NCBI GenBank assembly: GCA_965198095.1
Contig: OZ240239.1
Span: 1,018,816 to 1,082,815 of the forward strand
Length of the DNA: 64,000 bases
Direction: 5' to 3'
From: Candidatus Latescibacterota bacterium
GTDB lineage: Bacteria > Latescibacterota > UBA2968 > GCA-2709665
How positions within the stretch are numbered: position 1 is the stretch's first letter; each line of letters starts with the position of its first letter. The position numbers and the translations under genes are program-made. Positions 3,362-24,527 of this stretch are shown piece after piece. The notes below the pieces were generated by a model. It made no database searches, was not told the DNA's origin, and worked only from the letters and a program-made list of their open reading frames with translations.

Positions 3362-3615
3362 GGCTCAAGGTCCTCCGGGCCCGCGGTTCGGACCGCGTCC
3401 CCCTTGCCGGACGAGATCGGTCGTCGCGGTTGTGGGACGCGCATAACATAGCTGCCCCGATTTGACCGGTCAACCGAAAATCACGGCGTGACGGCCTCGT
3501 CGGAACCGGAACGGCTGCCGGGCCGGCTGCCGGGCGACGGCCCGGGTTGATTTGAACGCAGGCCGGATGTACCGTATATTGATCCGCCCTGGACACCTTA
3601 CCCGTGGAGCCGTTG

Positions 3616-4404
3616 ATGAGATTCAGGCCGTGCATCGATCTCCTGAATGGACGGGTTGCTCAGATCGTGGGGAGCAGCCTTCGTCCGAGCGGCGGGAACG
3701 GGCCTGACAGCAACTTCGAGACGCGGCGCCCGGCCGCCGAATACGCGCGTATGTACCAAGCGGACGGCCTGTTTGGCGGTCACGTGATCATGCTGGGCCC
3801 GGGAAACGAGCCGGCGGCGCTGTCCGCACTTCGCGCCTTCCCGGGGGGCTTGCAGGTGGGCGGAGGAATCACGCCTGAAAACGCGGTCCGGTTCCTGGAT
3901 GCCGGGGCGAGTCACGTCGTCGTCACGTCCTACGTCTTCCAAGAGGGTCTGTTGAACGAAACGAACGTGCGGCGCATGGTCTCCGAGGTGGGTCGCAACC
4001 GACTGGTGTTGGACCTGAGCTGCCGGAGGAGAGGAGAGACCTACGTCGTGGTTACGGAGAGATGGCAGCGCTTTACGAATCTGGAGGTGAACCGTGCGGC
4101 GCTGGAGTCGCTTTCGGCGTCCTGCAGCGAATTCATCGTTCACGGCGTGGACGTGGAAGGGAGGAGGCTGGGAATCGAAGCTGCCCTTGTCGAGAAGCTG
4201 GGCGCGGAGTCGCCGCTGCCCGCGACCTATGCGGGCGGCGCGCGAAGGCTTGAAGACCTGGACCGGGTGGACAGGCTGGGCGGCGGTCGGGTGAATCTGA
4301 CGATCGGAAGCGCGTTGGATATCTTCGGGGGAGACGTCCCGTATCGTGACGTCGTTGCGTGGCAGAGGAGACGGGAGAGCCGTTCCGAACCGGAGCCGGA
4401 GTAA
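3616..4404 (+). CDS. hisA: ProFAR isomerase of the eukaryotic His6 type (HisA)
   Basis: MRFRPCIDLLNGRVAQIVG..., VIMLGPGNE, LQVGGGI, VVVTSYVF, LVLDLSCRR, HGVDVEGRRLGIE, YAGGARRLEDLD and LTIGSALDIFGG align colinearly with yeast His6 rather than bacterial HisA. Confidence 0.8.
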   Translation: MRFRPCIDLLNGRVAQIVGSSLRPSGGNGPDSNFETRRPAAEYARMYQADGLFGGHVIMLGPGNEPAALSALRAFPGGLQVGGGITPENAVRFLDAGASHVVVTSYVFQEGLLNETNVRRMVSEVGRNRLVLDLSCRRRGETYVVVTERWQRFTNLEVNRAALESLSASCSEFIVHGVDVEGRRLGIEAALVEKLGAESPLPATYAGGARRLEDLDRVDRLGGGRVNLTIGSALDIFGGDVPYRDVVAWQRRRESRSEPEPE

Positions 4405-4515
4405 CGGAAAACGAGGACAAGGCGCGCCCGTCGCGCGACAGGTCGGCATCGCGGACTTCAGGGTCGCGCGTTGCGGGGCGTTTCTCGAAGCGATTGGCCG
4501 CCGCCTGGGTGGACG

Positions 4516-5550
4516 ATGAATTTTAGAGACATCGGTGAATTCGGTTTTATCGAGCAGGTTTCCAAGTACGGGCTCGTACGCGAGGAGGGCGTCCTTTGCG
4601 GCATCGGGGACGACTGCGCCGTCTTCTCGATGGGCGCGGGCAGGGCGCTGTTGGTGACCACCGATCTGATCTTGGAGGACGTGCATTTCCGGGCGGGTGC
4701 GTCCGAGCCGGAGGGACTTGGATACAAGCTCCTGGCCGTCAGCCTGTCGGATATCGCAGCGATGGGAGGCACGCCCAGGGATGCGGTCGTTTCGGTTGCG
4801 GTCCCGGAGTCGGCCGACGTTGGCGATGTGGCACGCATCTACGACGGTCTGCACGCGTGCGGCCGCCGGTTTGAAGTGAACATTTCTGGGGGCGACACGA
4901 CCCGCAGCCCGGGGCCGTTGCTTCTGAGCTTGACGTTGATCGGGGAGATGCGCGAGGGCCAAGTCCGATACCGATCCGGGGCCGGGGCGGACGACCTGAT
5001 TTGCGTGTCTGGCACACTCGGCGATTCTGCCGCCGGGCTGGCGCTGGTTCAGGGGCTGGAGGTGGAGATCCCCTCCCGTCACCGCGATACCTTGCTCCAA
5101 CGCCACCACCGTCCGGAGCCTCGGGTCGAGCTCGGCCGGCGGCTCGCAACGTCGGGCGTAGCCACGGCGATGATCGATCTTTCGGATGGCCTGACGTCCG
5201 ACATGGGGCATATTTGCAGACAGAGCGGCGTCGGGGCGGTGATCAGGTCGGACGACCTTCCTCTGTCTCCAGCCTACAGCGCTTTCTGTGGCGCAGCCGG
5301 AGTCGGCGCCCTGCCCAAAGCGCTTGCCGGCGGGGAGGATTACGAGCTTCTGTTCACGGCAAGGCCGGAGGGGGCTGAACGCGTTCGCGCACTGGGGAGG
5401 GAGGAAGGATGCCCTCCGATCTCGGTGATCGGACAAATCTTGGCGGGACCGGAACGCCTCTACCTGGAGGATGCGGACGGAGGACGAACCGCGCTCCAGA
5501 TGACCGGGTTCGATCACTTCAGGGAGAGGGATCCCCCGGAGGAAGGATAG
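4516..5550 (+). CDS. thiL: Thiamine-monophosphate kinase
   Basis: MNFRDIGEFGFIEQV..., LVTTDLILEDVHF, GYKLLAVSLSDIAAMGG and DLSDGL are ThiL/AIR-synthase-related signatures. Start set at the ATG at 4516. Confidence 0.8.
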   Translation: MNFRDIGEFGFIEQVSKYGLVREEGVLCGIGDDCAVFSMGAGRALLVTTDLILEDVHFRAGASEPEGLGYKLLAVSLSDIAAMGGTPRDAVVSVAVPESADVGDVARIYDGLHACGRRFEVNISGGDTTRSPGPLLLSLTLIGEMREGQVRYRSGAGADDLICVSGTLGDSAAGLALVQGLEVEIPSRHRDTLLQRHHRPEPRVELGRRLATSGVATAMIDLSDGLTSDMGHICRQSGVGAVIRSDDLPLSPAYSAFCGAAGVGALPKALAGGEDYELLFTARPEGAERVRALGREEGCPPISVIGQILAGPERLYLEDADGGRTALQMTGFDHFRERDPPEEG

Positions 5551-7937: not shown

Positions 7938-9206
7938 ATGAGATGGACGAAGGGTTGCGTCGTCGCCGTTCTCGTATGTGTGAGTTCGGCAGAGGGCTAT
8001 CGGATGCAGACCGATGGGATCGTCTGGATCGCTGAAGGCCCTTTGGCGGCCGATTTCGACCACGACGGACGGGTCGGGTTTGCCGATTTCATTCTGTTCG
8101 TGACCCGTTTTGATACGCAGGCCGGAGAGCCGGAGTTCAGGCAGCAGTTCGACCTTACGAGAGACGGCGTCGTGAATCTAAGCGACTTCCTCTCTTTCAC
8201 CGAGGCATTTGGCAGCAGTCGGGAGAGTCAGCCGTCCCGTCCTGATTACGAGGTCTATGTCGTCGATTTTGGCGGCGACTTTGTGGGTGTCCTGGATTTC
8301 AAGACCCACCTGTTTCAGGATTATCTCGCCTTCCGGAGTCCGTCCGGGATGCAAATTTCACGAGATCGAGCGTCGATCTATGTCGCGGAGGCCTTCGGTC
8401 TTTTCGTGATGAATGCGGAACGGGAGCTCCTGTATTCCGTTCCGTTGGAGTCCGCGGGGCGCGTGCTGCTGAGTCCGGACGAGAAGCTCGTCTATGTCGC
8501 GGAGGCGCTCACTTCTCAGGTGACGATTATCGACACGGAGCGGCGTGCGCCCGTAGATACGATCGGGGTCGGCGCCGCGCCCCAGCAATTGGGCCTGACG
8601 CCCGACGGCAGAAAGCTCTACGTGATGAATGCGCTCAGCTCGGACATCTCGGTGCTGGATCTGGACCGCCGGGAAGAAGCGACGAGAATCGATGTCGGCA
8701 CCCAGCCGGTGGACATGCGTATCACGCCCGACGGTCGGCGAGCCTACGTGCTGAACGGGGAACGCGCGCTCATCTCGGTGCTGGATCTGGTCTCTGACCG
8801 CGTTGTCGGCGCGATTCCGATCGAAGATACCGGGAACGGGGGGCTCGCGTTTTCTCCGGATGGAGAGACGCTCTACGTGAGCTCGGCCGGGAAGCTGCTC
8901 GCCCTGGATGTCGGACGGAATCTGATTTCGAGAAGCCTGGACCTGGGGGGGCAATCGAGCGCGATCGGCATCTCGCCCGACGGCGCCCGTGCCTACGTGG
9001 CATCGCTCGTTTTTCAGAGTGGCGGGAGTGGCGTCACGGTCGTCGACCTCGTGAACTGGAAGGTGATGGGACGCATGCTGGGGTTTGTCTTCCCGAGCCA
9101 GATTGAATTCCGTGCGATCGAGGCCGGGGAAGGCACCTCGCTGCCCGTCGGGAAGGGTGTTCCAGATCCCGATGCAAACCCTGAACTGTCCACCAAACCG
9201 GGGTAG
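7938..9206 (+). CDS. Secreted protein: N-terminal dockerin-like Ca-binding repeat pair plus YVTN-family beta-propeller repeats
   Basis: DFDHDGRVGFADFILFVTRF and DLTRDGVVNLSDFLSFTEAFG are dockerin/EF-hand-like. Repeated 40-residue units LYVMNALSSDISVLDL / AYVLNGERALISVLDL / LYVSSAGKLLALDV match the YVTN propeller repeat. Confidence 0.7.
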   Translation: MRWTKGCVVAVLVCVSSAEGYRMQTDGIVWIAEGPLAADFDHDGRVGFADFILFVTRFDTQAGEPEFRQQFDLTRDGVVNLSDFLSFTEAFGSSRESQPSRPDYEVYVVDFGGDFVGVLDFKTHLFQDYLAFRSPSGMQISRDRASIYVAEAFGLFVMNAERELLYSVPLESAGRVLLSPDEKLVYVAEALTSQVTIIDTERRAPVDTIGVGAAPQQLGLTPDGRKLYVMNALSSDISVLDLDRREEATRIDVGTQPVDMRITPDGRRAYVLNGERALISVLDLVSDRVVGAIPIEDTGNGGLAFSPDGETLYVSSAGKLLALDVGRNLISRSLDLGGQSSAIGISPDGARAYVASLVFQSGGSGVTVVDLVNWKVMGRMLGFVFPSQIEFRAIEAGEGTSLPVGKGVPDPDANPELSTKPG

Positions 9207-9539
9207 CTCCGCTGTCGGCCTGCGCGGCTGGCGGGGCCTATGTCTTCCAGGCCTTTGAGTTCGGTTGTCCACCGGGCCGGTTTCCGCGCTCCTCTCCCGG
9301 GAAGCAAGAGCCCACCCCGGCCTCGAAGTCGTCCGGTTCGTCTGCGGGCCGCAGAAGCGTGACGCCTCCCCGGTGGCTTCCCTCCTCAGTTGTCTCCCTT
9401 TTATATTATTTGATATCTTTGCCTGCGCGTAGGCCATCATCATATCGGGTGGCGTCCTATGGATGCAAAAAGCGTGAGTCTCGGCCTGGTATCGAGCGAA
9501 GGCCGGGTGAACTCCGCGAGGATTTGCGAGGAGGAACTC

Positions 9540-10334
9540 ATGGCACGCATGGCTGTCATCGTTCTGATTCTGGGGGTATGTCTGCCGGAGGCACTCCCGG
9601 CAGGGGTGGTCCTGAAAGCGGGTGAGATCGACAGCGGCAAGGTTCGCGTGGGCGTCTTTGCGGAGGTTGTCTACGGGAAGGGGAAGCGGGATCCGGTCTC
9701 GGGGAAGTGGGAGAAGCTGGTCACGGCAAGAGGATATATCAAGGCCGTGGACGCGGAGGGCTTGACCCTTGGAGGACGTTTTCGGAAGAAGCGAATTGCA
9801 TTTGCGCGTATTCAAACGCTGCTTCTTGCGAAGTCCAGCCGCGAGATGGCCCGGCTCAGAAAGACGACAGATAAGGAGTTGCCTTTTGCGAGCACGGACG
9901 CCGAGAGCTGGTGGTCGGAAGGTCAGTTCATTCGCATCCATCCCCGAGGTATGGAGAAAGGGATCGTCGCCCGGGTTCACCGGGCGACAAGGGACACCCT
10001 GTTCTTCTATAAGAAGCGTATGAGTATCCTGAGACGAGAGAAACGACCCGAGGCCATCGCGCTCACGGATATTTCCAGGCTCGAAGTCTACAAATACCGC
10101 GAGTCCTACGCCAAGGAGGGCGCCATCGTCGGTGCTGCAGCAGGGATCGCAGCGGTACTGGTCGGCCACCAAGAGGCCGTAGTGCCTCACCCGATCCTAC
10201 TTCTCATGCCACCGATTATGGGTCTTATGGGCGGTGCCCTCGCCGGCTCGATGCTCGGTCACGATGTCTGGCAGGTCGTCGATCTGTCGCCATCCACCGT
10301 TGAGCGAAGACGCCGACTGTCGTTCCGATTTTGA
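9540..10334 (+). CDS. Hypothetical exported/membrane-anchored protein
   Basis: Signal peptide MARMAVIVLILGVCLPEALPAGVV and a C-terminal Gly/Ala-rich hydrophobic segment. No recognisable domain. The large antisense ORF 8358-10190 is rejected. Confidence 0.45.
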   Translation: MARMAVIVLILGVCLPEALPAGVVLKAGEIDSGKVRVGVFAEVVYGKGKRDPVSGKWEKLVTARGYIKAVDAEGLTLGGRFRKKRIAFARIQTLLLAKSSREMARLRKTTDKELPFASTDAESWWSEGQFIRIHPRGMEKGIVARVHRATRDTLFFYKKRMSILRREKRPEAIALTDISRLEVYKYRESYAKEGAIVGAAAGIAAVLVGHQEAVVPHPILLLMPPIMGLMGGALAGSMLGHDVWQVVDLSPSTVERRRRLSFRF

Positions 10335-10433
10335 GTGCGTCAGCGCCAATGGTATCTGCGCGCCTACGTTCCCGGCATCTGCCGGCCTCCCACACCTCTG
10401 ATCGGAACGTTGAGACCAGGAAAGGAAGGCATC

Positions 10434-13400
10434 GTGCGACCCTTCGCTATTTTTATTCTGCTGGCGTTCGTGGGTCAGGCATCTGCCGACCCGAATGGCG
10501 AGACGGGTGGGAGCGCGTCGACAGCGGTGATCTCCTCGACCCGCTTTCCGGGGGATTTCGATTGGGACTTCGATGTCGACTTTGCCGATTTTCTGGCCTT
10601 TGTCTCGGTCTTTGGCAAGACGTCTGCAGACGCCGGTTACAATCCCCGTATGGATATGGACGGAAGCGGCGCCATTGATTTTGCCGATTTTGTGACGTTT
10701 GCCGGCGTTTTTGGTCGCACATACACACGGCCGCCGTGGGCGGCGGACCGTGATGCATTGATCGCTTTGTACCATGCGACCGACGGGGATAGCTGGACGG
10801 ACAGGACAAACTGGCTGACCGACACTGATCTTTGGACCTGGTATGGCGTCAGGGTTTCAGACGGTCGGGTCACGCGCTTACAGCTTGATGAGAATAATCT
10901 GAGTGGGTCGATCCCGTCCGAATTGAGCGATCTGTCCAACCTTAGAGGTCTGTGGCTTTACGACAACGCGTTGAGTGGTCCGATCCCGTCCGAATTGAGC
11001 AACCTGTCCAACCTTAGAGGTCTGTCGCTTGGCAACAATGCGTTGAGTGGATCGATCCCGTCCGAACTGGGCAATCTGTCCAACCTTACGAGTCTGTGGC
11101 TTTACGGCAACGCGTTGAGTGGGTCGATCCCGTCCGAACTGGGCAACCTGTCCAACCTTAGGAGTCTACTTCTTAGCGGCAACGAGTTAAGTGGGTCGAT
11201 TCCCTCCGAATTGGGCAACCTGTCCAACCTTACGAGTCTGTCGCTTGGCGCCAACGCGTTGAGTGGTCCGATCCCGTCCGAATTGGGCAACCTGTCCAAC
11301 CTTTTGGATCTGTCGCTTTCCAACAACACATTGAGTGGGTCGATCCCGTCCGAGTTGGGCAACCTGTCCAACCTTGGGAGTCTGTGGCTTCACGTCAATG
11401 CGTTGAGTGGTCCGATCCCCACCGAGTTGGGCAACCTGTCCAACCTTGCGCAGTTGCTTCTTAACGATAATACCTCCTTGACGGGCACACTTCCACAGAG
11501 CCTGACGCGTCTGACAAATCTGAAGACCTTTCATTTTCACAACACGGGGCTCTGTGTGCCGCTCGATGATGCGTTTCAGACGTGGTTAAAGGGTATGGAA
11601 GACGCCAGGGGCTCGACTTGCCCCGGTGGAGGCACATTGTCCACCGACCGCGATGCGTTGGTGGCGCTATACCATGCGACCGACGGGGATAGCTGGACGG
11701 ACAAGACAAATTGGCTGACCGACGCCGATCTTTCGACCTGGCATGGCGTTACGGTTTCAGACGGTCGGGTTACCCGCGTGCAGCTTGATGGGAATAATCT
11801 GAGTGGCACGACTCCTGCGGCGTTGGGCAACCTGTCCAACCTTACGGATCTGCTCCTTAACAATAATACGTCCTTGACAGGTACACTTCCACAGCGCCTG
11901 ACGCGTCTGACAAATCTGAAGCGCCTCTATTTTCACAACACGGGGATTTGTGCGCGGCTTGAAGGCGCGTTTCAGACGTGGTTTCAGGGCATTGAAGACG
12001 CCAGAGGCTCGACTTGCCCTGATCGCGATGCGCTGGTGGCGCTCTACCATGCGACCGACGGCGATAGCTGGACGCACAAGACAAACTGGCTGACCGACAC
12101 CGATCTTTCGACTTGGCATCGCGTCACGGTTTCTGACGGTCGGGTCACACAATTGCTGCTTTACCGGAATAATCTGCGTGGTTCGATTCCGTCCGAACTG
12201 GGCAATTTGTCCAGCCTTACGGACTTGCTTCTTGACGGCAACGCGTTGAGTGGTTCGATTTCGTCCGAACTGGGCAACCTGTCCAGACTTGAGGCCCTGT
12301 GGCTTTCCGACAACGCGTTGAGTGGTCCGATTTCGTCCGAACTGGGCAACCTGTCCAGCCTCCGGGAACTGCGGCTTTCCGGCAACGCGTTGAGTGGTTC
12401 GATTCCGTCTGAACTGGGCAACCTATCCAACCTTCGGAGTCTGAGTCTCGCCGGCAACGCGTTGAATGGTTCGATTCCGTCTGAACTGGGCAACCTGTCC
12501 AACCTTGCGTTTCTGCATCTTCAAGGCAACGCGTTGAGTGGTTCGATTCCGTCTGAACTGGGCAACCTGTCCAACCTTGTGTTTCTGCATCTTCACGGCA
12601 ACGCGTTGAGTGGTTCGATTCCGTCCGAACTGGGCAACCTGCCCAGCCTTAATAGTCTGCTTCTTAACGATAATTTGCACTTGACGGGCACACTTCCACA
12701 CAGTCTGACGCGTCTGACAAATCTGAGGTACTTTCGTTTTCAAAACACGGGGCTTTGTGCGCCGCTCGATCGTGCGTTTCAGACGTGGCTTCATGGCATA
12801 GAAAACACCAATGGCTCAAATTGCTCTGGTGAAGGCACATTGTCCACCGACCGCGATGCGTTGGTCGCGCTGTACAATTCGACCGACGGGGATAGCTGGA
12901 CGGACAGGGCCAACTGGCTGACCGACACCGATCTTTCGACTTGGCGTGGCGTCACGGTTTCCAACGGTCGGGTTACGCGCTTAGGGCTTGATGAGAACAA
13001 TCTGAGTGGTTCGATCCCTCCGGCATTGGGCAACCTCTCCAACCTTGAGGCCCTGCAGCTTGTCGGCAATGCGTTGAGTGGTCCGATCCTGTCCGAACTG
13101 GGTAACCTGTCCATCCTCGAGACCCTGGTGCTTTCCCGAAATGCGTTGAGTGGTCCGATCCCTTCCGAACTGGGCAACCTGTCCTTCCTTAGGTTTCTGC
13201 TTCTTTCGGGCAATGCGTTGAGTGGTCCGATCCCCTCCGAGTTGGGCAACCTGTCCATCCTTAGGATTCTGGAGCTCTCCGCCAACGCGTTGAGTGGTCC
13301 GATCCCCTCTGAACTGGGCAACCTGTCCAACCTTGGGGATCTGTTTCTTGACCACAACGCGTTGAGTGGTCCGATCCCTCCGGCATTGGGCAACCTGTCC

Positions 13401-13667
13401 AACCTCCAACTCCTGTGGCTTGGCAATAATGCGTTGAGTGGTTCGATCCCGTCCGAATTGGGCAACCTGTCCAACCTTGTGCACCTGTTTCTTAACGATA
13501 ATTCGTCCTTGACGGGCCCACTTCCACAGAGCCTGACGGGGCTTAAAAAGCTACAGCACTTTCATTTTCATAACACGGGGCTTTGCGCGCCGCTCGATGG
13601 CGCATTTCAGACGTGGCTTCAGGGCATTGGAGACGCCAATGGCTCAAACTGCGCTTCCTCCGACTGA
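10434..13667 (+). CDS. Large secreted leucine-rich-repeat protein: N-terminal dockerin-like pair followed by four tandem plant-type LRR modules
   Basis: GTG start after GAAAGGAAGG. Signal peptide VRPFAIFILLAFVGQASA. DFDWDFDVDFADFLAFVSVFG and DMDGSGAIDFADFVTFAGVFG are dockerin-like. Each of the four modules starts DRDALVALYHATDGDSWTDKTNWLTD.DLSTWHGVTVSDGRVT.L (an LRRNT-like cap). The cap is followed by 24-residue repeats L.GNNLSGSIPSELGNLSNL and ends LTGTLPQSLTRLTNLK.FHFHNTGLC.PLD.AFQTWL.G.EDA.GS.C. Confidence 0.85.
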   Translation: MRPFAIFILLAFVGQASADPNGETGGSASTAVISSTRFPGDFDWDFDVDFADFLAFVSVFGKTSADAGYNPRMDMDGSGAIDFADFVTFAGVFGRTYTRPPWAADRDALIALYHATDGDSWTDRTNWLTDTDLWTWYGVRVSDGRVTRLQLDENNLSGSIPSELSDLSNLRGLWLYDNALSGPIPSELSNLSNLRGLSLGNNALSGSIPSELGNLSNLTSLWLYGNALSGSIPSELGNLSNLRSLLLSGNELSGSIPSELGNLSNLTSLSLGANALSGPIPSELGNLSNLLDLSLSNNTLSGSIPSELGNLSNLGSLWLHVNALSGPIPTELGNLSNLAQLLLNDNTSLTGTLPQSLTRLTNLKTFHFHNTGLCVPLDDAFQTWLKGMEDARGSTCPGGGTLSTDRDALVALYHATDGDSWTDKTNWLTDADLSTWHGVTVSDGRVTRVQLDGNNLSGTTPAALGNLSNLTDLLLNNNTSLTGTLPQRLTRLTNLKRLYFHNTGICARLEGAFQTWFQGIEDARGSTCPDRDALVALYHATDGDSWTHKTNWLTDTDLSTWHRVTVSDGRVTQLLLYRNNLRGSIPSELGNLSSLTDLLLDGNALSGSISSELGNLSRLEALWLSDNALSGPISSELGNLSSLRELRLSGNALSGSIPSELGNLSNLRSLSLAGNALNGSIPSELGNLSNLAFLHLQGNALSGSIPSELGNLSNLVFLHLHGNALSGSIPSELGNLPSLNSLLLNDNLHLTGTLPHSLTRLTNLRYFRFQNTGLCAPLDRAFQTWLHGIENTNGSNCSGEGTLSTDRDALVALYNSTDGDSWTDRANWLTDTDLSTWRGVTVSNGRVTRLGLDENNLSGSIPPALGNLSNLEALQLVGNALSGPILSELGNLSILETLVLSRNALSGPIPSELGNLSFLRFLLLSGNALSGPIPSELGNLSILRILELSANALSGPIPSELGNLSNLGDLFLDHNALSGPIPPALGNLSNLQLLWLGNNALSGSIPSELGNLSNLVHLFLNDNSSLTGPLPQSLTGLKKLQHFHFHNTGLCAPLDGAFQTWLQGIGDANGSNCASSD
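10745..13660 (+). repeat. Intragenic tandem repeats: 72-bp LRR units nested in four ~0.4-0.9 kb module duplications
   Basis: Near-identical DNA blocks (gggcaacctgtccaacctt...ggcaacgcgttgagtggttcgatcccgtccgaactg) recur dozens of times. Module starts are near 10745, 11646, 12019 and 12853. Confidence 0.8.
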
Positions 13668-14118
13668 CCCGCGCCGTCGCCCATAGGCCGGGTCACGGTC
13701 TCATATATCCTCATCAATAGGGATGAGTTTGGAGATGACCCAGGGTTTGGGGGCTTCGCATTAGCCTTGATTCGAAAAAAACAAGCAATCCACAACTTCG
13801 TAAGGCCGTGAGAAATGTGGAATTACCTCAGCTAAAATGCACTGTTTTTCTGTTCACATCCCGTGAACTAAAGAATGGCCGAATGGTGACGTAAAGACGC
13901 CTTTGTTCTTCTGGACAAATCCCAGAGAACACCGCCGAGATATTTCGAATCAAGGTTAGTGTTTGGGCCACCCATTTTCGGTCTCATGGACGCCGGTGCC
14001 GGCTGATTCCGGGGCTATGTCTGCCGGAGGCGCTCCTCGCAGGGGTGGTCCTGGCTCCCCCCTATCCCGATTCAGTGCCCTGAGCGACGCGACGCACGCG
14101 CTGCGTTTGCCCGCAGTC

Positions 14119-14586
14119 TTACCGGACCGCCTCCAGGATTTCGATCTTGACGAGGGCGACCCCTTCCCGGATCATGTCGAGTTTTTTGGCGGCGCCCAGA
14201 GAGAGGTCGAGAATTCTTCCCTCTATGAATGGACCGCGGTCGTTGATCTTGACGACAACGTGTCGGCCGTTCTCGAGGTGGGTGACTCGAACGACCGTGC
14301 CGAGCGGGAGCTCCCTGTGGGCTGCGGTCAGCCCGTTCATGTCGAAGATTTCTCCGCTCGCGGTGGGACGACCGTGGAACTTGTGGGCGTAATACGAAGA
14401 GAGGCCGATCTGGTGAGCGCCCTTTCTCGAAATGGGCGCCGCGTCGGGTTTGGACGGCGAGCTCTTTCCGTCGTCTCTCGGCTTCGGTGGCGAGGTCCTG
14501 TAGCGCGGTCGAGAGACGCAGGCGGGCAACGTGGCGAGATACAGGATCAAAAGGAGCCACGAAATCTTGGATCGTAAGGCAGTCAA
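14119..14586 (-). CDS. rlpA: Septal ring lytic transglycosylase RlpA-family lipoprotein (DPBB domain)
   Basis: Lipoprotein signal ([13 protein letters not shown]) and a DPBB core [60 protein letters not shown]. Confidence 0.8.
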
Positions 14587-16466: not shown

Positions 16467-18176
16467 TCAATCAGCGCTTCGTTCGGCCGCGTCTGAGACC
16501 CCGGCACTGTCGCCGGCGGGCGCTTCCACGTCCAGAAACCCGCCCTTCAATTTTTCGCGTGCCACTTCGGAAAACTCGGACATCGGATATCGATCGATCA
16601 ATCGCTGATATTGGGCTCTGGCCAGATCGGGCGTGTTACGCTCGTTCTCATAGAACCACGCCAGAGCGTAGATGGCCTTCGCCGCATAGAGGGTATTGGG
16701 GAAGTCGGCTGCGATTTGTCTGAAAAGAGCCATCGCCTCTTCCAGCGTCGCCCCGTCCTGCCGCAGCGCCTCTGCCCGATGGAAACGTGCCTGGGCCTCG
16801 GCCTCCTGCGTCCCTTCCTCCAGAATTCGCTTCCGGGCCGAAACCGCGAACGGGCTGGCCGGGTAGCGTTCGACCAGCTGGCCAAAGTAACGACGAGCCG
16901 CGGTGTCGTCTTTCAGCGTGTCGGCGTAGACGAGACCCAGTGCGTACAGGGCCTTGGGAGCGGCGTCGGAGGTGTCGGCCGCCTTCAGAACCCGATCGTA
17001 GACCGCCACGGCGGAGTCGGGTTCCGAGAGCCCGAAGAGGTAGAGCTCGGCCAAATTGAAGGAGGCTTCAATCCCCTTCTTGCCCTTCTTTTGCGAAGCC
17101 TTTTCATATCGTTTCAGATCGGAGAGCAGTTTCTCGCGCATCCGGACCAGCCCGGCGGCCTCCGAACCTGACTTCTCCCTTTTCGCCATCTGAAAGTGCT
17201 CTTTTGCCGAGGCGTGATCCTTCCGGTGCTGAAGCGCGATCAGCCCCATCTCGTAGTATGCGAAAGCGCTGTGTTCCGTGTGGGGCAGGTTCTTCGTGAT
17301 CTGCGCGTATATCCGTTCTGCGGTTTCGAACGCTTCCATGGACGTGTGGACATTTGCCTGCCTTAGACGAACGTCTCCTTCGTAAGACCGAAAGCGTTTG
17401 ATCTTCAGGATCTTCCCGTAGACCTCCAGGGCCTCCTGGAATCTGTGCTGCAACTCCAACGTCCGCCCGAGCCGAAGCCGGGTGAGGTAGTCCGTGCCGA
17501 TATCCGGTCCGGACTTCAAGACCTGCTCGTAGGCTGCCGCTGCCTCGTCGTAACGTTGCTGGTTGAAAGCGGCGTTTCCGATGCCGCTCCAGATTTTTGC
17601 CTTCAGCTTTTTCTCCTTCTCATATTCCGAGAGCAGCTGCTTGTAGGCATCGATCGCGGCCTGGTAGTTCTCCTGGTCGGATTCCAGCTCTGCCAGGGAG
17701 ATGCGTGCCTCCTTGGTAAAATGCCCACCCTCGACATTTCCGATCTCAACAAAGATGTCACGTGCGCCGTCGATTCGGCCCTCGGCGCGGAGGGCCAGGC
17801 CGCGCCAGTAATAGGCCTCTTCGACCAGGTCGCTTTCCGGAAAGTTCTCAGCGAGCTCCTGGAACTTCAACACGGCTTCGTCGTGAATCTCCCGCCAGTA
17901 AAAGGCCTTGCCGATGAGCAGCAGCGCATCGTCTACCCATTTGCTGTCGGGATGCCTGTCCAGCACGATGGAGGCCTTGCGGATGGCGTTCATGTAAAGC
18001 TTCTTGTATGCCTGAGACCTCCGGCTCCTGTCGGAGCGGGTTTCCGTTTCACGACGTTTCCGATCGGCGTCATCGAACTGTTTGCGCGCGTTGTAGAACG
18101 TGTTGAAGTAGACGCATCCGGAAAGGAAGGTCAGCGCGGCCAAAGGCCATAGTCTTCGAAGGGCGTTCATCCGCAC
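16467..18176 (-). CDS. Tetratricopeptide-repeat lipoprotein
   Basis: Lipoprotein signal MRMNALRRLWPLAALTFLSGC, followed by many TPR-like helical repeats. Confidence 0.7.
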   Translation of the reverse strand: MRMNALRRLWPLAALTFLSGCVYFNTFYNARKQFDDADRKRRETETRSDRSRRSQAYKKLYMNAIRKASIVLDRHPDSKWVDDALLLIGKAFYWREIHDEAVLKFQELAENFPESDLVEEAYYWRGLALRAEGRIDGARDIFVEIGNVEGGHFTKEARISLAELESDQENYQAAIDAYKQLLSEYEKEKKLKAKIWSGIGNAAFNQQRYDEAAAAYEQVLKSGPDIGTDYLTRLRLGRTLELQHRFQEALEVYGKILKIKRFRSYEGDVRLRQANVHTSMEAFETAERIYAQITKNLPHTEHSAFAYYEMGLIALQHRKDHASAKEHFQMAKREKSGSEAAGLVRMREKLLSDLKRYEKASQKKGKKGIEASFNLAELYLFGLSEPDSAVAVYDRVLKAADTSDAAPKALYALGLVYADTLKDDTAARRYFGQLVERYPASPFAVSARKRILEEGTQEAEAQARFHRAEALRQDGATLEEAMALFRQIAADFPNTLYAAKAIYALAWFYENERNTPDLARAQYQRLIDRYPMSEFSEVAREKLKGGFLDVEAPAGDSAGVSDAAERSAD

Positions 18177-19996
18177 CGCGCGGCCTTTCCTTGATGGAAT
18201 TCCTGAAGCGTGCGGACACGGATGGATTCGTCCTTCTTCTGAGATTCGATTCCGGCGACGGCTGCGGCGGCCCCGGCGAGCGTGGTCGTGTAGGGGATGC
18301 CGTACTGGAGGGCAGCCCGTCGAATCTGGAGGTCGTAAGCCTGGGACTTTTCGCCGGCGGGCGTGTTGACCATGAGGTCGATCCTCTTGTTCTTTATGGC
18401 GTCCACGACGTGGGGCCGCCCCTCCTGTATTTTGAAGGTACGTTCGGCGGGGATCCCCCGGGCCGCCAGGAACGACTGGGTGCCCTGCGTCGACAGGATC
18501 CGGAAACCGAGCGCCACGAGGCGCCGGGCCACGGGCAGCACGGCGGCCTTGTCCCGATCGTTCACGCTTACGAAGACGGTTCCCTCACAGGGCAATCGCA
18601 CGCCCGCGCCGAGCTGGGCCTTGTGAAAGCTGAGCCCAAAGTCGGTGTCGATCCCCATGACCTCGCCGGTGGATTTCATTTCCGGGCCAAGAAGCGTATC
18701 TACGCCCGGGAACTTGATGAAGGGCAGGACCGCCTCCTTGACGGCGATGTGATCGATGACGATGTCGTCAGGAATCTCTTGCTCTTTGAGCGTCCTTCCG
18801 ACCACCGCCCGCGCCGCGACCTTGCCCAGCGGGATGCCGATCGCCTTGCTGACGAAGGGAACGGTGCGGGAAGCCCTGGGGTTGACCTCCAGGACGTAGA
18901 CCTCCTCATTCTGAATCGCGTATTGTACGTTGATCAGACCGACCACCTGAAGGGCGCGCGCCAGGGCCCGCGTATGTCTTTTGAGCTCGTCGAGGTTGTC
19001 ATCCGAAATCCTGTATGGGGGCAGCACGCACGCGCTGTCTCCGGAGTGGATGCCGGCGCTCTCGATATGTTGCATGATTCCGCCGATGATGACGGCAGAC
19101 CGATCGCTCACGGCATCGACGTCGAACTCGTGGGCGTCTTCCAGGAAGCGGTCGATGAGAACGGGATGCTCGGGCGACGTCCGAATCGCTTCTTCCATGT
19201 AGCTCAGGAGCGCCTCCGTCTCGTAGACGATGACCATGGCGCGACCTCCCAGGACATAGGAGGGGCGCACCAGCACCGGATAGCCGATCGATTCCGCGAC
19301 GGCGACGGCCTCGTCCGTGCTCGTTGCCGTGCCGTTTTCGGGCTGTCGGAGGCCAAGTTCATCGATGAGGTTGCCGAACCGCTCCCGGTCCTCCGCGAGA
19401 TCGATGCTTTCCGGAGAGGTGCCCAGGATCTTCAGTCCGGCCCGCTCCAGATCGTGGGCGAGATTCAACGGCGTCTGTCCACCGAACTGAACGATGGCCC
19501 CGTCGGGCGCTTCCGCATCCGCGATGTTGAGGACATCTTCCGCGGTCACGGGCTCGAAGTAGAGTTTGTCGGACGTATCGTAGTCCGTGCTGACGGTCTC
19601 GGGGTTGGAATTGACCATGATGGTCTCGAAACCGTCCTCTCTCAGCGCGAAAGAGGCGTGAACGCAGCAATAGTCGAACTCGATCCCCTGTCCGATGCGG
19701 TTTGGGCCGCTGCCCAGGATCATGATCTTCTTCCGTTTGGACCGAACCACTTCGGTTTCGGTCTCGTAGGTCGAAAAATGGTAGGGCGTGTAGGCCTCGA
19801 ATTCAGCCGCGCAGGTATCCACCGTCTTAAACGTGGCAACGACGCCGAGTTCTTTCCTGAGTGCCCTCACCGTCCATTCGTCGGTTTGCCACAGATGGGC
19901 AAGCTGCCGGTCGCTGAAGCCGGATTGCTTGGCCTTGAGCAGGATCTCCCGGCCGATTCCGGCTCTCAGGTCATTCAGGGCGCGGGTTCTTTTCAT
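18167..19996 (-). CDS. carB: Carbamoyl-phosphate synthase large subunit, C-terminal segment (end of the oligomerisation domain, second ATP-grasp, MGS-like domain)
   Basis: LNDLRAGIGREILLKAKQSGFSDRQLAHL...FKTVDTCAAEF...IMILGSGPNRIGQGIEFDYCCVH continues CarB colinearly from about E. coli residue 485. The track start at 20014 is a TTG codon, so the ATG at 19994-19996 is also a possible start. Confidence 0.85.
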   Translation of the reverse strand: MKRTRALNDLRAGIGREILLKAKQSGFSDRQLAHLWQTDEWTVRALRKELGVVATFKTVDTCAAEFEAYTPYHFSTYETETEVVRSKRKKIMILGSGPNRIGQGIEFDYCCVHASFALREDGFETIMVNSNPETVSTDYDTSDKLYFEPVTAEDVLNIADAEAPDGAIVQFGGQTPLNLAHDLERAGLKILGTSPESIDLAEDRERFGNLIDELGLRQPENGTATSTDEAVAVAESIGYPVLVRPSYVLGGRAMVIVYETEALLSYMEEAIRTSPEHPVLIDRFLEDAHEFDVDAVSDRSAVIIGGIMQHIESAGIHSGDSACVLPPYRISDDNLDELKRHTRALARALQVVGLINVQYAIQNEEVYVLEVNPRASRTVPFVSKAIGIPLGKVAARAVVGRTLKEQEIPDDIVIDHIAVKEAVLPFIKFPGVDTLLGPEMKSTGEVMGIDTDFGLSFHKAQLGAGVRLPCEGTVFVSVNDRDKAAVLPVARRLVALGFRILSTQGTQSFLAARGIPAERTFKIQEGRPHVVDAIKNKRIDLMVNTPAGEKSQAYDLQIRRAALQYGIPYTTTLAGAAAAVAGIESQKKDESIRVRTLQEFHQGKAARCG

Positions 19997-20121
19997 GTTG
20001 GAAGCGCGGACCAAAGCCGATCCCGTCAGGCGTGGGTTCCTTCATCTTCGAACGGCAGGAGACAACCGGAAGGGGCGGCAGCCCGTCGGCTTCTGCTGCT
20101 GAGCGGCCCGCTGTCCGTGGA

Positions 20122-24439: not shown

Positions 24440-24527
24440 GGTGGGGTGTCCGAGCGGTCGAAGGAGACGGTCTTGAAAACCGTTGACCCTCACGGGTCCG
24501 TGGGTTCGAATCCCACCCCCACCGCCA
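24440..24527 (+). tRNA. tRNA-Ser (anticodon TGA), CCA encoded
   Basis: GGTGGGGTGTCCGAGCGG...CTTGAAAAC...long variable arm...GGGTTCGAATCCCACCCCCACCGCCA. The 7-bp acceptor stem pairs. Confidence 0.85.

What the first reader, a model, noticed from the sequence alone, without database searches (positions are those of the whole stretch)
10434..13667. Bacterial protein built from plant-specific-type LRR modules with a dockerin-like anchor
The repeats follow the plant extracellular LRR consensus LxxLxxLxLxxNxLSGxIPxELGNLSNL (24 residues) rather than typical bacterial LRR classes. Each of the four modules begins with a cap very like the plant LRRNT_2 (DRDALVALY...SW....W.GVTVS..GRVT.L.L..NNLSG). Each ends in a Cys-containing cap HNTGLC.PLD.AFQTWL...C. 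Modules 1, 3 and 4 are ~0.8-0.9 kb duplications. Module 2 is a short version. The DNA repeats are near-identical, implying recent expansion and potential phase or length variation.
Basis: partly seen in the sequence, partly recalled or inferred. Interest (0 to 1): 0.6.

Follow-up and report, generated by a model that had tools for sequence, protein, structure and literature searches.

The report
Strain-variable secreted plant-type LRR protein
An uncultured bacterium encodes a secreted protein of four leucine-rich-repeat binding modules that closely resemble plant receptor ectodomains; it belongs to a very large uncharacterised bacterial family, and the gene is resized, broken, lost or replaced between closely related strains.

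Summary
Each module has its own N-cap and Cys-containing C-cap.

The repeats are of the plant-specific class by consensus, by PDB sequence search, and by confident AlphaFold models whose best structural matches are all plant ectodomains.

Two claims fail:
- The DNA repeats are not near-identical. Modules are 75-82% identical and the longest exact repeat is 44 nt.
- The N-cap does not reach the Pfam LRRNT_2 threshold and lacks the plant Cys pair. By sequence it is closest to caps of Bacteroides LRR proteins.

The module type is common. The 125-aa minimal module hits 29,045 protein clusters at E<=1e-10.

The new result is population variation. Near-identical strains carry alleles with 8/1/7/7 or 7/1/5/7 repeats, a 2-module allele broken by an IS5-type element, no gene at all, or an unrelated giant adhesin-like protein. 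A sister species has an ankyrin protein at the same position.

Repeat variability sits on five positions of the xxLxLxx motif, the beta-strand face (dN/dS 1.5 versus 0.2 elsewhere).

Best reading: a surface-tethered, multivalent binding protein under diversification, probably for host interaction. It is a new member of a known kind.

The parts
10434..13667 (+). Coding sequence of the 1077-aa secreted modular LRR protein (GTG start, stop included)
   Evidence: The ORF and Shine-Dalgarno sequence are. The equivalent start opens the homologous ORFs in L001 and L015. Pfam matches LRR_14, LRR_1, LRR_4 and LRR_8.
10434..10487 (+). Sec-type signal peptide (VRPFAIFILLAFVGQASA, with an A-S-A cleavage motif and no lipobox Cys)
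   Evidence: Read directly from the translation. This is an inference from the sequence pattern. No predictor was run.
10545..10727 (+). Dockerin-family domain with two calcium-loop-plus-helix segments. The first loop is degenerate (DFDWDFDVDFAD). The second is canonical (DMDGSGAIDFAD).
   Evidence: Pfam Dockerin_1 scores 14.4-16.3 bits, below the gathering cutoff of 22.9. A profile of 8 homologous domains hits solved dockerins 2y3n_B (3e-11), 4wi0_B (1.5e-10) and 3kcp_A over their full length. All 8 members match Dockerin_1 at E<=0.1. The internal 38-nt duplication is seen.
10746..11645 (+). LRR module 1: N-cap, 8 regular 24-aa LRRs, 2 irregular LRRs, Cys C-cap
   Evidence: Parsed. PDB sequence search gives GSO1 at 1e-150 and FLS2 at 8.5e-147.
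11646..12020 (+). LRR module 2, the minimal 125-aa module: N-cap, 1 regular LRR, 2 irregular LRRs, Cys C-cap
   Evidence: Parsed. AlphaFold2 gives pLDDT 98.2 and pTM 0.91. The top 30 Foldseek PDB matches are plant ectodomains, with OsSERK2 at TM 0.80. The 125-aa size is the commonest module size among homologues.
12021..12848 (+). LRR module 3: N-cap, 7 regular LRRs, 2 irregular LRRs, C-cap. This is the most strain-variable module.
   Evidence: Parsed. Its concave-position residues are entirely different in the L001 allele, which has 5 repeats.
12849..13664 (+). LRR module 4: N-cap, 7 regular LRRs, 2 irregular LRRs, C-cap. This is the most conserved module between alleles.
   Evidence: Parsed. 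AlphaFold2 gives pLDDT 97.7 and pTM 0.93, with a strand-strand-helix unit in each repeat. The top 50 Foldseek PDB matches are all plant proteins, with HSL1 at TM 0.89 and rmsd 2.2.
9540..10334 (+). Upstream co-inherited gene of 264 aa from MARMAV: signal peptide, repeated ~120-aa domain, C-terminal glycine-rich hydrophobic segment. It belongs to a lineage-restricted multi-copy family.
   Evidence: It is present with the LRR gene in L010 and L015 and absent with it in L013. Only 89 homologues exist among 5.8 billion proteins, with many paralogues per genome. It has no Pfam or PADLOC match.
9169..14070 (.). 4.9-kb strain-variable segment (upstream gene plus LRR gene), replaced by about 200 bp in a conspecific contig
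   Evidence: L013 aligns at 99.2-99.5% on both sides and lacks this segment.
7938..9206 (+). Neighbouring gene: the same dockerin/EF-hand-like N-terminal domain fused to a YncE-type beta-propeller
   Evidence: Pfam matches YNCE, with sub-threshold matches to SGL/Lactonase and Dockerin_1. NCBIfam matches beta_rpt_yvtn, and dockerin_GC scores 25.1 against a cutoff of 29. It is a member of alignment A4.

Best explanation
The gene encodes a Sec-exported extracytoplasmic protein. It is built as beads on a string: an N-terminal dockerin-family calcium-binding domain, then four autonomous LRR solenoids of the plant-specific class. Each solenoid is closed by its own N-cap and by a two-cysteine C-cap that contains a helix.

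Shown:
- The domain anatomy.
- The LRR class.
- The confident plant-ectodomain-like fold of the modules.
- Homology of the N-terminal domain to dockerins.
- Residue variability among the repeats is confined to the five x positions of the xxLxLxxN motif, while the other 19 positions are almost fixed.
- The gene is an accessory cassette. Between near-identical strains it varies in repeat number and module number, is disrupted by an IS element, is absent, or is replaced by another kind of surface or repeat protein.

Inferred:
- Those five x positions lie on the concave beta-strand face (established LRR structural knowledge).
- Each module is an independent ligand-binding unit whose concave face sets specificity.
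- The dockerin tethers the protein, in a calcium-dependent way, to a cohesin-like or other partner at the cell surface, giving a multivalent adhesin or receptor-mimic.
- Diversification proceeds by duplication or deletion of 72-nt units and by recombination between modules.
- The ligands most likely belong to a eukaryotic host. This would make it a 'eukaryotic-like protein' of the kind enriched in sponge symbionts. The host and the ligands remain unidentified.
For: Anatomy.

LRR class:
- 24-residue consensus xxLxLxxNALSGSIPSELGNLSNL.
- PDB sequence search puts plant LRR receptor kinases first, from 1e-150.
- AlphaFold2 gives pLDDT 98.2 and 97.7, with a strand-strand-helix unit per repeat. This is the beta-beta-3_10 unit that PMC5976695 gives for plant-specific LRRs.
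- The top Foldseek matches are all plant ectodomains.

Extracytoplasmic location:
- A signal-peptide pattern.
- C-cap cysteines are invariant in 22 aligned modules (C246 and C268).
- A dockerin domain.
- Homologues carry surface or secretion domains such as Big_2, fn3, peptidases S8 and M66, and Por_Secre_tail.

Binding-face diversification: entropy is 2.5-3.2 bits at positions 1, 2, 4, 6 and 7, against at most 1.45 bits elsewhere. Nei-Gojobori dN/dS among the 23 repeats is 1.52 at those positions against 0.20 elsewhere.

Strain variation. The split CarB C-terminal subunit is about 100% identical in the five conspecific contigs recovered through it; L015 was recovered through the LRR homologue P0006 and is about 89% identical across the cassette.
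- L001 has 7/1/5/7 repeats and 98.5% identical flanks.
- L010 has a 2-module recombinant allele cut by a 1.5-kb IS5-type element with a CTAA target duplication.
- L013 lacks the gene.
- L011 and L012 carry a protein of at least 2064 aa with fn3, He_PIG and PKD domains in that position.
- L014, a sister species, carries an ankyrin protein there.
- L015 carries an allele of about 5 modules.

Local duplications: a 144-nt block at 95% identity in L001, and adjacent units at 93% in the window.

The cassette is more diverged than its flanks (dS 0.04-0.14 against 0.006-0.021). Its GC3 is lower (0.66 against 0.73-0.82).

Host-association context:
- Some homologues come from sponge-derived MAG series.
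- LRR and ankyrin eukaryotic-like proteins are enriched in sponge symbionts (PMC5845141, PMC6306507, PMC12993501).
Against: - No ligand, host or expression data exist.
- The sample's environment is not known to me.
- No cohesin was found among the 31 larger window ORFs scanned, and the rest of the genome could not be searched.
- The window protein's first calcium loop is degenerate, and the Cys pair that flanks the dockerin in homologues is lost. Tethering may therefore be weak or different.
- No outer-membrane translocation signal is evident, such as a T9SS C-terminal domain. The protein could stay in the periplasm.
- The dN/dS contrast among repeats is computed on old, partly saturated duplicates (dS 0.86). 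It cannot be separated cleanly from relaxed constraint at surface positions.
- Between alleles, omega in the alignable parts is 0.2-0.6, not above 1.
Confidence: 0.6

Rival explanations
1. It is a component of an extracellular multi-protein assembly unrelated to a host. Several dockerin-bearing proteins would be docked on a common scaffold, in a cellulosome-like arrangement. These would include this LRR protein, the neighbouring dockerin-beta-propeller, and the dockerin-bearing S8 peptidase seen in related strains. The LRR modules would bind particles, polymers or other bacteria.
For: - The same dockerin type sits on the adjacent beta-propeller protein.
- It also sits on a Peptidase_S8/fn3/cadherin protein in L011 and L012.
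- Homologues fuse these LRR modules to peptidases and to Big_2 or fn3 domains.
- The family is present in MAGs of many phyla, and not all are known to be host-associated.
Against: - No cohesin or scaffoldin was seen among the window ORFs scanned.
- The hypervariable binding face, the strain-level replacement by ankyrin or adhesin-like proteins, and the homologues from sponge-derived MAGs all fit host interaction better.
Confidence: 0.22
2. It is a phase-variable contingency gene that switches at high frequency, by slippage or recombination among near-identical repeats.
For: Repeat number and module number do differ between co-occurring strains in one sample. Young local duplications exist, at 93-95% identity.
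Against: - The repeats are 75-82% identical and the longest exact repeat is 44 nt.
- All length changes seen preserve the reading frame in 72-nt quanta.
- The alleles also differ by many substitutions (dS 0.04-0.14). They are therefore old allelic lineages, not recent switch products.
- Inactivation was by IS insertion, not by frameshift.
Confidence: 0.08
3. It is an effector translocated into host cells, like the Xanthomonas LRR effectors XopL, XopAE and XopAC or the Ralstonia GALA proteins.
For: NCBIfam gives its best, though sub-threshold, matches to XopAE, XopAC and XopL.
Against: - Scores are far below the cutoffs: 202 against 600, 147 against 450, 71 against 500.
- The protein has a cleavable Sec-type signal peptide, a dockerin and conserved cysteine caps. 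These suit an oxidising extracytoplasmic location.
- No secretion-system genes were found among the window ORFs scanned.
Confidence: 0.04
4. It is a recent capture of a plant receptor ectodomain by horizontal transfer.
For: The best sequence and structure matches are plant LRR receptor kinases, at 33-42% identity in structural alignments. The gene's GC3 is lower than that of its neighbours.
Against: - The N-cap lacks the plant Cys pair and fails LRRNT_2.
- An N-cap profile finds only Bacteroides LRR proteins in the PDB, and no plant protein at E<=10.
- The C-cap (C, about 21 residues with a helix, then C) recurs throughout the bacterial homologues; that it differs from plant C-caps rests on my recall of the plant pattern.
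- The same module occurs in tens of thousands of protein clusters and in several bacterial phyla.
- Identity to plant proteins is modest.
Confidence: 0.03
5. The module structure is an assembly artefact, or the gene is a decaying pseudogene.
For: Repetitive genes are prone to misassembly. One allele (L010) is disrupted and one (L015) has a frame break.
Against: - The window ORF is intact over 3.2 kb.
- The repeats are diverged enough to assemble unambiguously.
- Four independent contigs from two samples give coherent alleles in register.
- Scaffold positions are under strong purifying selection (dN/dS 0.20).
- The contig names look like long-read metagenome assemblies. This last point is from my own recollection and was not verified.
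Confidence: 0.03

Closest known systems
Plant LRR receptor-kinase, receptor-like-protein and PGIP ectodomains (plant-specific LRR class; for example FLS2, GSO1, MIK2, HSL1, PSKR, the SERKs and PGIP)
   Same: - The 24-residue consensus LxxLxLxxNxLSGxIPxxLGxLxxL.
- The strand-strand-short-helix repeat unit.
- A capped solenoid.
- They are the best sequence and structure matches.
- The minimal 125-aa module matches SERK-type small ectodomains best in fold (TM 0.80).
   Different: - The protein is bacterial and has no transmembrane helix or kinase.
- The N-cap has no Cys pair and fails Pfam LRRNT_2.
- The C-cap has about 21 residues, including a helix, between its two cysteines. Plant caps have a short C-x6-8-C (recalled from memory).
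- Four complete solenoids are strung in one chain behind a dockerin.
Uncharacterised bacterial 'leucine-rich repeat domain-containing proteins' built from the same capped module (MAGs of Gemmatimonadota, Latescibacterota, Dehalococcoidia and Pseudomonadota; Desulfonema)
   Same: - The same N-cap, LRR class and C-cap.
- Module lengths are quantised as 125 + 24n.
- Homologues often have several modules, and some have the same N-terminal dockerin.
- This is the family the protein belongs to.
   Different: Best full-length identity is only 49-60%. Partners differ, and many homologues add peptidase, Big_2, fn3 or YWTD domains. None has been studied experimentally as far as my searches show.
Bacteroides LRR proteins BT_0210 (4ecn) and BACEGG_03329 (4eco), which are structural-genomics structures
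   Same: They are the only PDB proteins found by the N-cap profile, aligned over the full cap (ALxxxWxALxGxNW...NW...LxxW..GVxxxxxGRVT; E = 0.056 and 0.16). They are also the first non-plant fold matches.
   Different: The matches are marginal. The caps carry insertions, the overall architecture differs, and the function is unknown.
Eukaryotic-like repeat proteins (LRR, ankyrin, TPR, NHL, fn3) of sponge symbionts
   Same: - It is an LRR protein of eukaryotic type in an uncultured bacterium.
- Ankyrin and fn3-rich proteins occupy the same chromosomal position in relatives.
- Some homologues come from sponge-derived MAGs.
- The literature describes this category and its proposed role in evading phagocytosis (PMC5845141, PMC6306507, PMC12993501).
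   Different: This is an operational category, not a homologous family. The host association of this genome is not established here, and a role in phagocytosis is untested.
Cellulosomal type I dockerins
   Same: Two tandem calcium-loop-plus-helix segments. The family profile matches solved dockerins at 3e-11 over the full length.
   Different: - The domain is N-terminal.
- The helix motif is Phe-rich (DFxxFxxxFG).
- The first loop is degenerate in this protein.
- No cohesin has been identified, and the organism is not cellulolytic as far as can be seen.
Xanthomonas type III LRR effectors (XopL, XopAE, XopAC) and Leptospira LRR proteins (LIC11098, LIC_11051)
   Same: They are bacterial proteins whose LRRs resemble plant-type repeats. 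They give the best NCBIfam matches and the best bacterial PDB sequence matches.
   Different: All are far below the family cutoffs. The Xanthomonas proteins use a different export route. They lack the capped multi-module architecture.
Variable LRR binding scaffolds such as lamprey variable lymphocyte receptors and plant resistance-protein LRRs
   Same: Variability is concentrated on the concave xxLxLxx positions of an otherwise fixed scaffold. Repeat number varies between alleles.
   Different: There is no evidence for a dedicated diversification mechanism. The variation seen is between strains, not within a cell lineage.

Membership tests
Plant-specific (PS) LRR class | Repeat length of 24 residues | tested here: met
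   All 23 regular repeats are exactly 24 aa, and the DNA period is 72 nt.
Plant-specific (PS) LRR class | Consensus LxxLxLxxNxL(S/T)GxIPxxLGxLxxL | tested here: met
   The consensus is xxLxLxxNALSGSIPSELGNLSNL. The L, N, G, I and P positions are conserved in 20-23 of 23 repeats.
Plant-specific (PS) LRR class | Structural unit beta-beta-3_10, as given in PMC5976695 | tested here: met
   DSSP on the AlphaFold2 models (pLDDT 97.7-98.2) shows strand, strand and a short 5-residue helix in every repeat (definition). These are predicted structures, not experimental ones.
Plant-specific (PS) LRR class | Closest solved relatives are plant extracellular LRR proteins | tested here: met
   About the first 40 phmmer hits against the PDB are plant proteins, from 1e-150. 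The top 30 (module 2) and top 50 (module 4) Foldseek matches are plant proteins.
Pfam LRRNT_2 (PF08263), the plant LRR N-terminal cap | Score at or above the gathering threshold (20.7 bits) | tested here: not met
   Only the module-4 cap scores, at 16.2 bits (E = 0.013). The module-1 cap and the whole of module 2 show no hit; the module-3 cap was not scanned on its own. None of 44 homologous minimal modules hits at E<=0.1. Two of the 120 listed homologues carry a precomputed PF08263 hit.
Pfam LRRNT_2 (PF08263), the plant LRR N-terminal cap | Conserved Cys pair around the W-x-G-V motif (C..W.GV.C) | tested here: not met
   There is no cysteine in any of the four N-caps, nor in the consensus of the 51-sequence N-cap alignment. 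The plant pattern is recalled from general knowledge.
Pfam LRRNT_2 (PF08263), the plant LRR N-terminal cap | Helix plus short beta-hairpin that caps the first repeat | tested here: met
   The models show a helix at residues 2-11 and strands at 35-38 and 41-46. Whole-module alignments to SERK and PGIP ectodomains reach TM 0.77-0.80. This shows a resemblance of fold only. An N-cap sequence profile finds no plant protein at E<=10.
Dockerin type I (PF00404) | Score at or above the gathering threshold (22.9 bits) for this protein | tested here: not met
   The score is 14.4-16.3 bits, although the match covers profile positions 1-49 of 57.
Dockerin type I (PF00404) | Homology of the domain family to solved dockerins | tested here: met
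   A profile of 8 domains hits 2y3n_B (3e-11), 4wi0_B (1.5e-10), 4u3s_B, 5k39_B and 3kcp_A over their full length, ahead of EF-hand proteins. All 8 members match Dockerin_1 at E<=0.1, the best at 3e-8.
Dockerin type I (PF00404) | Two intact calcium-binding loops | tested here: inconclusive
   The second loop (DMDGSGAIDFAD) is canonical. The first (DFDWDFDVDFAD) keeps the acidic positions but has Phe where Gly is usual.
Dockerin type I (PF00404) | A cognate cohesin partner | not testable with these tools
   No cohesin was found among the 31 larger window ORFs scanned. The complete genome could not be searched.
Xanthomonas LRR type III effectors (NCBIfam XopAE, XopAC, XopL) | Score at or above the curated cutoff | tested here: not met
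   202.5 against 600, 147.4 against 450, and 71.2 against 500.
Slippage-type phase-variable (contingency) locus | Tandem repeats that are identical or nearly identical in DNA | tested here: not met
   LRR units average 75% identity and the longest exact repeat is 44 nt.
Eukaryotic-like proteins of sponge symbionts (an operational category) | The organism lives in a sponge or another eukaryotic host | not testable with these tools
   The sample accessions (ERZ25072076 and others) carry no description here. The support is indirect only: homologues in sponge-series MAGs and an ankyrin protein at the same position in a sister species.
Known anti-phage defence proteins (PADLOC) | Match to any defence-system model | tested here: not met
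   There are no matches for the LRR protein or its two upstream neighbours.

The most novel reading that the evidence does not exclude
The position between the rlpA-like gene and the rpsA region may be a dedicated 'surface-specificity slot'. There, a symbiont population would exchange whole binding-protein cassettes (plant-type LRR, ankyrin, giant fn3/He_PIG adhesin). It would also reshuffle LRR modules and units by recombination. This would be a population-level analogue of variable lymphocyte receptors or antigenic variation, tuned to host recognition.

A second possibility follows. The capped, autonomous plant-type LRR module, down to a 125-aa unit of SERK-like fold, is ancient and diverse in bacteria. 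That raises the chance that the plant receptor ectodomain architecture came from bacteria rather than the reverse.
Probability: 0.12. Interest if true: 0.75.

Novelty: new member of a known kind. Interest (0 to 1): 0.42.

Why it matters
Plant-type LRRs in bacteria are often read as curiosities or as signs of gene transfer from plants. Here the capped plant-type module turns out to be a standard, very abundant bacterial building block. It has its own bacterial-style caps and comes in quantised sizes.

In one natural population the gene that carries it behaves like a fast-evolving surface-specificity gene:
- It changes in size.
- It recombines between modules.
- It is knocked out by an IS element.
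- It is lost.
- It is swapped for other repeat proteins.

Variability is focused on the predicted binding face.

If the organism is a host-associated symbiont, this gives concrete, testable material for how symbiont strains differ in host recognition. That material comprises the alleles, the modules and a candidate tether. The confident models also mark these small, idealised, disulfide-capped modules as possible binding scaffolds.

Tried and rejected
- Exact look-up of the 1077-aa product found nothing. Look-up of the best CarB match P0124, on a 4.08-Mb contig that may be the window's source, also failed. The window's own contig and sample therefore remain unidentified.
- A cluster look-up of ten NCBI-held homologues returned no names.
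- The first literature search for plant-specific LRRs with horizontal transfer in bacteria found one irrelevant paper. The paper I recall on this topic (Miyashita et al., Natural Science) is not in the library, so I cite it only from memory.
- The AlphaFold-database fold library was unavailable. No taxonomic survey by structure was possible.
- The N-cap profile against the PDB gave no plant hit. Scans for LRRNT_2 across homologues were negative. I therefore dropped the idea that the cap is a bona fide LRRNT_2.
- The promoter and terminator scan around the gene was at background level.
- No mobile-element signature (integrase, tRNA or long direct repeats) bounds the 4.9-kb segment. The only repeat is a 51-nt stretch that turned out to be the signal-peptide-coding part of the upstream gene family.
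- PADLOC found no defence-system match.
- Phylum assignment stayed ambiguous. The nearest named CarB homologues are from Latescibacterota and Gemmatimonadota at 63-69% identity.

Full report

Yes, at exactly the stated coordinates. A single ORF runs from a GTG at 10434, with AGGAAGG a few bases upstream, to the stop at 13665-13667 (1077 aa). The equivalent start (VRPFAIF...) opens the homologous ORFs in two related contigs: the called gene in L001, and the ORF read from the called gene coordinates in L015.

The product reads as follows:
- A signal-peptide-like N-terminus, VRPFAIFILLAFVGQASA.
- A two-lobed acidic and Phe-rich segment at aa 38-98.
- Four modules that start at aa 105, 405, 530 and 806 (nt 10746, 11646, 12021 and 12849).

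Each module has the same layout:
- A 42-aa N-cap.
- 8, 1, 7 or 7 regular 24-aa LRRs.
- Two irregular LRRs.
- A C-cap of the form FHNTGLCxPLDxAFQTWLxGIxxxxGSxC.

Tandem Repeats Finder and the repeat finder both recover the 72-nt period and the four-module register.

The DNA repeats are not near-identical:
- Modules share 75.5-82.1% DNA identity.
- N-caps share 85-90%.
- The 23 regular units average 75% (range 58-93%).
- The longest exact repeat is 44 nt.

**2. LRR class**

The consensus of the 23 regular repeats is xxLxLxxNALSGSIPSELGNLSNL. This matches the 24-residue plant-specific pattern. Pfam reports only generic LRR families: LRR_14, LRR_1, LRR_4 and LRR_8.

Module 1 was searched against all PDB sequences.
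- About the first 40 hits are plant LRR receptor-kinase ectodomains: GSO1 at 1e-150, FLS2 at 8.5e-147, then MIK2, PEPR1, HSL1, BRI1 and PSKR.
- The first bacterial hit is Leptospira LIC11098 at 1.5e-62.

AlphaFold2 models were built from alignments of homologous modules, and both are very confident.
- Module 2: pLDDT 98.2, pTM 0.91.
- Module 4: pLDDT 97.7, pTM 0.93.

In the regular repeats of module 4 DSSP shows strand, strand and a five-residue helix, and the repeats of module 2 show similar strand-and-helix elements. This is the beta-beta-3_10 unit that the LRR-classification literature assigns to plant-specific LRRs (PMC5976695).

Foldseek against the PDB gives only plant ectodomains at the top.
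- Module 2: the top 30 are plant proteins (TMK1, BAK1 and the SERKs, OsSERK2 at TM 0.80, PGIP at 0.77). The first bacterial entry, BT_0210, is at rank 31.
- Module 4: the top 50 are plant proteins. HSL1 reaches TM 0.89 with rmsd 2.2 A. RGFR1 aligns at rmsd 1.0 A over 209 columns with 42% identity.

**3. The caps**

The N-cap resembles plant LRRNT_2 in pattern and fold, with a helix, then W-x-G-V, then GRVTxLxL. It is not a member by the family's own test.
- Only the module-4 cap scores, at 16.2 bits against a cutoff of 20.7.
- None of 44 homologous minimal modules hits LRRNT_2 at E<=0.1.
- The plant Cys pair is absent.
- A profile built from 51 N-caps finds no plant protein in the PDB at E<=10.

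The C-cap has two cysteines that are invariant in 22 aligned seven-repeat modules (C246 and C268). They are separated by about 21 residues that form a helix in the models. From memory, plant C-caps have a much shorter Cys spacing. I did not test this directly.

**4. The N-terminal domain**

On its own it falls below Pfam's Dockerin_1 threshold (14.4-16.3 bits against 22.9). I aligned eight such domains:
- this protein;
- the neighbouring beta-propeller protein;
- the Latescibacterota locus L003;
- five database homologues.

That alignment matches solved cellulosomal dockerins over their full length, at 3e-11, 1.5e-10 and 8.6e-10, ahead of EF-hand proteins. All eight members match Dockerin_1 at E<=0.1.

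So 'dockerin-like' is justified as homology. 'Anchor' is an inference.
- No cohesin was found among the 31 larger window ORFs scanned.
- The first calcium loop of this copy is degenerate.
- The Cys pair that brackets the domain in relatives is missing.

**5. How common is this?**

Very common.
- The full-length query saturated the candidate limit, with 7,999 of 8,000 candidates at E<=1e-10.
- The 125-aa module 2 was scored against 1.84 billion cluster representatives. It hits 60,735 at E<=1e-3, 29,045 at E<=1e-10 and 6,014 at E<=1e-30.
- The hits include giant proteins with up to 49 matched stretches.
- That library is unannotated, so plant proteins are included in the counts.

Among the 120 best homologues I parsed 237 complete modules.
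- Their lengths fall in steps of 125 + 24n.
- The 125-aa minimal module is the commonest size.
- Module 2 is therefore a standard unit, not a degraded copy.

Named relatives are MAGs of Gemmatimonadota, Latescibacterota, Dehalococcoidia and Pseudomonadota, plus Desulfonema.
- The Latescibacterota protein has the same dockerin, four modules with the same C-cap, and a YWTD propeller.
- One Dehalococcoidia MAG belongs to a bin series that a sponge-symbiont study lists among sponge-associated bins.
- The window's own phylum is unresolved. The nearest named CarB homologues are from Latescibacterota and Gemmatimonadota at 63-69% identity.

**6. Strain-level variation (the main new finding)**

The split CarB C-terminal subunit of the window is about 100% identical to proteins on at least six other contigs. 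Five of these, plus a sister-species contig (86% CarB identity), could be retrieved with their flanks. The DNA flanking the locus is 98.5-99.5% identical to the window. What lies between the rlpA-like gene (14119-14586) and the beta-propeller/rpsA genes differs from contig to contig.

| Contig | What occupies the position |
|---|---|
| Window | 4 modules with 8/1/7/7 repeats |
| L001 | 4 modules with 7/1/5/7 repeats (1004 aa) |
| L010 (38x contig from the same sample as L001) | 2 modules; the module-1 repeats run into a module-3-type C-cap, as expected from recombination between modules; interrupted in the first LRR of the last module by a 1.5-kb IS5-type element (DUF772 transposase) with imperfect inverted ends and a CTAA target duplication |
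| L013 | Gene absent; window 9169-14070 is replaced by about 200 bp |
| L011 and L012 (other samples) | A protein of at least 2064 aa with fn3, He_PIG, PKD and beta-helix domains |
| L014 (sister species, 86% CarB identity) | A 562-aa ankyrin-repeat protein |
| L015 (more diverged, about 89% identical across the cassette) | An allele of about five modules with a frame break; a second LRR gene cut by a 98.7%-identical copy of the same IS element, with a TTAG duplication |

Young local duplications exist. L001 has a 144-nt two-repeat block at 95% identity. The window has adjacent units at 93%.

Length and module-number polymorphism is therefore real. It involves old, diverged alleles: in the alignable parts dS is 0.04-0.14, against 0.006-0.021 in flanking genes. 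It does not come from slippage of identical repeats.

**7. Where the variation sits**

Across the 23 regular repeats, entropy is 2.5-3.2 bits at positions 1, 2, 4, 6 and 7. These are the x positions of the xxLxLxxN motif, which established LRR structural knowledge places on the concave beta-strand face. At the other 19 positions entropy is at most 1.45 bits, and mostly below 0.6.

Nei-Gojobori dN/dS among the repeats is 1.52 at those five positions against 0.20 elsewhere. The synonymous distances are large, so this estimate is rough.

Between the window and L001, modules 2 and 4 keep nearly the same concave-position residues. Modules 1 and 3 are completely different. This is the pattern expected of a fixed scaffold that presents a diversifying binding surface.

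**8. Surroundings**

The window is an ordinary chromosomal region. It carries an amidase-LysM gene, rpsA, pyrD and pyrK, a split carB, yjeF, gltX, glnS and tRNAs.

The LRR gene travels with an upstream gene (9540-10334).
- That gene encodes a signal peptide, a repeated domain of about 120 aa and a glycine-rich hydrophobic tail.
- The domain is present once more in L010 than in the window.
- It is present with the LRR gene in L010 and L015 and absent with it in L013.
- Its family has only 89 members among 5.8 billion proteins, but up to 7-8 paralogues per contig in this lineage.
- In L015 the LRR gene is embedded in an array of at least seven of these paralogues.

Both genes have lower GC3 (0.66-0.69) than their housekeeping neighbours (0.73-0.82).

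The next gene upstream (7938-9206) carries the same dockerin type on a YncE-type beta-propeller.

**9. Mechanism and rivals**

The best-supported reading has three parts:
- The protein is exported by the Sec pathway.
- It is tethered through its dockerin (inferred).
- It displays four independent plant-type LRR binding modules whose concave faces set specificity (inferred from the anatomy and the variability pattern).

The population diversifies or discards the gene through several routes, all observed:
- duplication or deletion of repeat units;
- recombination between modules;
- IS insertion;
- cassette replacement.

A role in interaction with a eukaryotic host is the most likely context. Ankyrin and fn3 alternatives sit at the same position, some relatives come from sponge-series MAGs, and the literature describes eukaryotic-like proteins in sponge symbionts (PMC5845141, PMC6306507, PMC12993501). 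It is not demonstrated.

| Rival | Weight |
|---|---|
| Host-independent, dockerin-based extracellular assembly or environmental adhesin | 0.22 |
| High-frequency phase variation | 0.08 |
| Translocated effector | 0.04 |
| Recent capture from a plant | 0.03 |
| Assembly artefact or pseudogene | 0.03 |

**10. Verdict**

The inferences of 'recent expansion' and 'near-identical repeats' are wrong, and the cap is not LRRNT_2.

The protein is a new member of a very large, uncharacterised bacterial family of capped plant-type LRR modules. The added value is the documented hypervariability of the locus among near-identical strains, and the focus of variation on the predicted binding face.

Interest is moderate. 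A specialist would not be surprised by plant-type LRRs in bacteria, but the population-level picture is concrete and testable.

Noticed in passing
window 7938-9206 (+): A 422-aa protein carries the same N-terminal dockerin/EF-hand-like domain as the LRR protein, fused to a YncE-type beta-propeller. Two adjacent secreted proteins therefore share one putative docking module.
   Followed up: partly
window 9540-10334 (+); L010 20393-21550; L015 3287-6322 and 11243-14898: The gene upstream of the LRR gene belongs to a lineage-restricted family. It has only 89 hits in 5.8 billion proteins, but up to 7-8 paralogues per contig. Its internal domain number varies, and it forms tandem arrays around LRR genes in L015. 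It has no Pfam match.
   Followed up: partly
window 9564-9614 and 14003-14053: A 51-nt direct repeat (90% identity) flanks the LRR gene. It is the signal-peptide-coding stretch of the upstream gene family, so the downstream copy looks like the remnant of another paralogue.
   Followed up: partly
L010 17036-18578; L015 1329-2865: The same 1.5-kb IS5-type element (98.7% identical, DUF772 transposase, 4-bp CTAA/TTAG target duplications) is inserted inside LRR coding sequence in two different contigs from two samples. No copy is present in the window.
   Followed up: partly
window about 24440-24706; L011 and L012 upstream of position 5290: A second strain-variable boundary lies next to two tRNA-Ser genes (24440-24527 and 24601-24692). 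L011 and L012 stop aligning at window 24706. Beyond it they carry other genes, including a dockerin-bearing Peptidase_S8/fn3/cadherin protein, in place of gltX and glnS.
   Followed up: no
L014 16017-17705: In a sister species (86% CarB identity, 5.66-Mb contig) a 562-aa ankyrin-repeat protein occupies the position next to the rlpA-like gene where the window has the LRR cassette.
   Followed up: no
window 18167-20014 and 20122-21573 (-): Carbamoyl-phosphate synthase large subunit is split into two separate ORFs in this lineage. The closest relatives share the split (604-623 aa), while more distant homologues are fused (about 1070 aa).
   Followed up: no
window 56500-59328 (-): A 942-aa ORF has no Pfam match at E<=1e-5. 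Several other long ORFs also have none (for example 3598-5517 and 49088-50455). Some of these may be spurious ORFs in GC-rich DNA.
   Followed up: no
L010 and L012, genes downstream of the TPR gene: Gene calls for pyrK, pyrD and the rlpA-like gene are shorter in L010 and L012 (204, 286 and 73 aa) than in L001, L011 and L013 (260, 304 and 143 aa), despite about 99% DNA identity. The cause may be start-codon choice, frameshifts or consensus errors. It was not examined.
   Followed up: no
window 46902-47957 (+): A RIO1-domain protein (a RIO-type kinase, Pfam E = 3.3e-37) lies next to a tRNA-Pro gene. This is recorded only as gene content.
   Followed up: no
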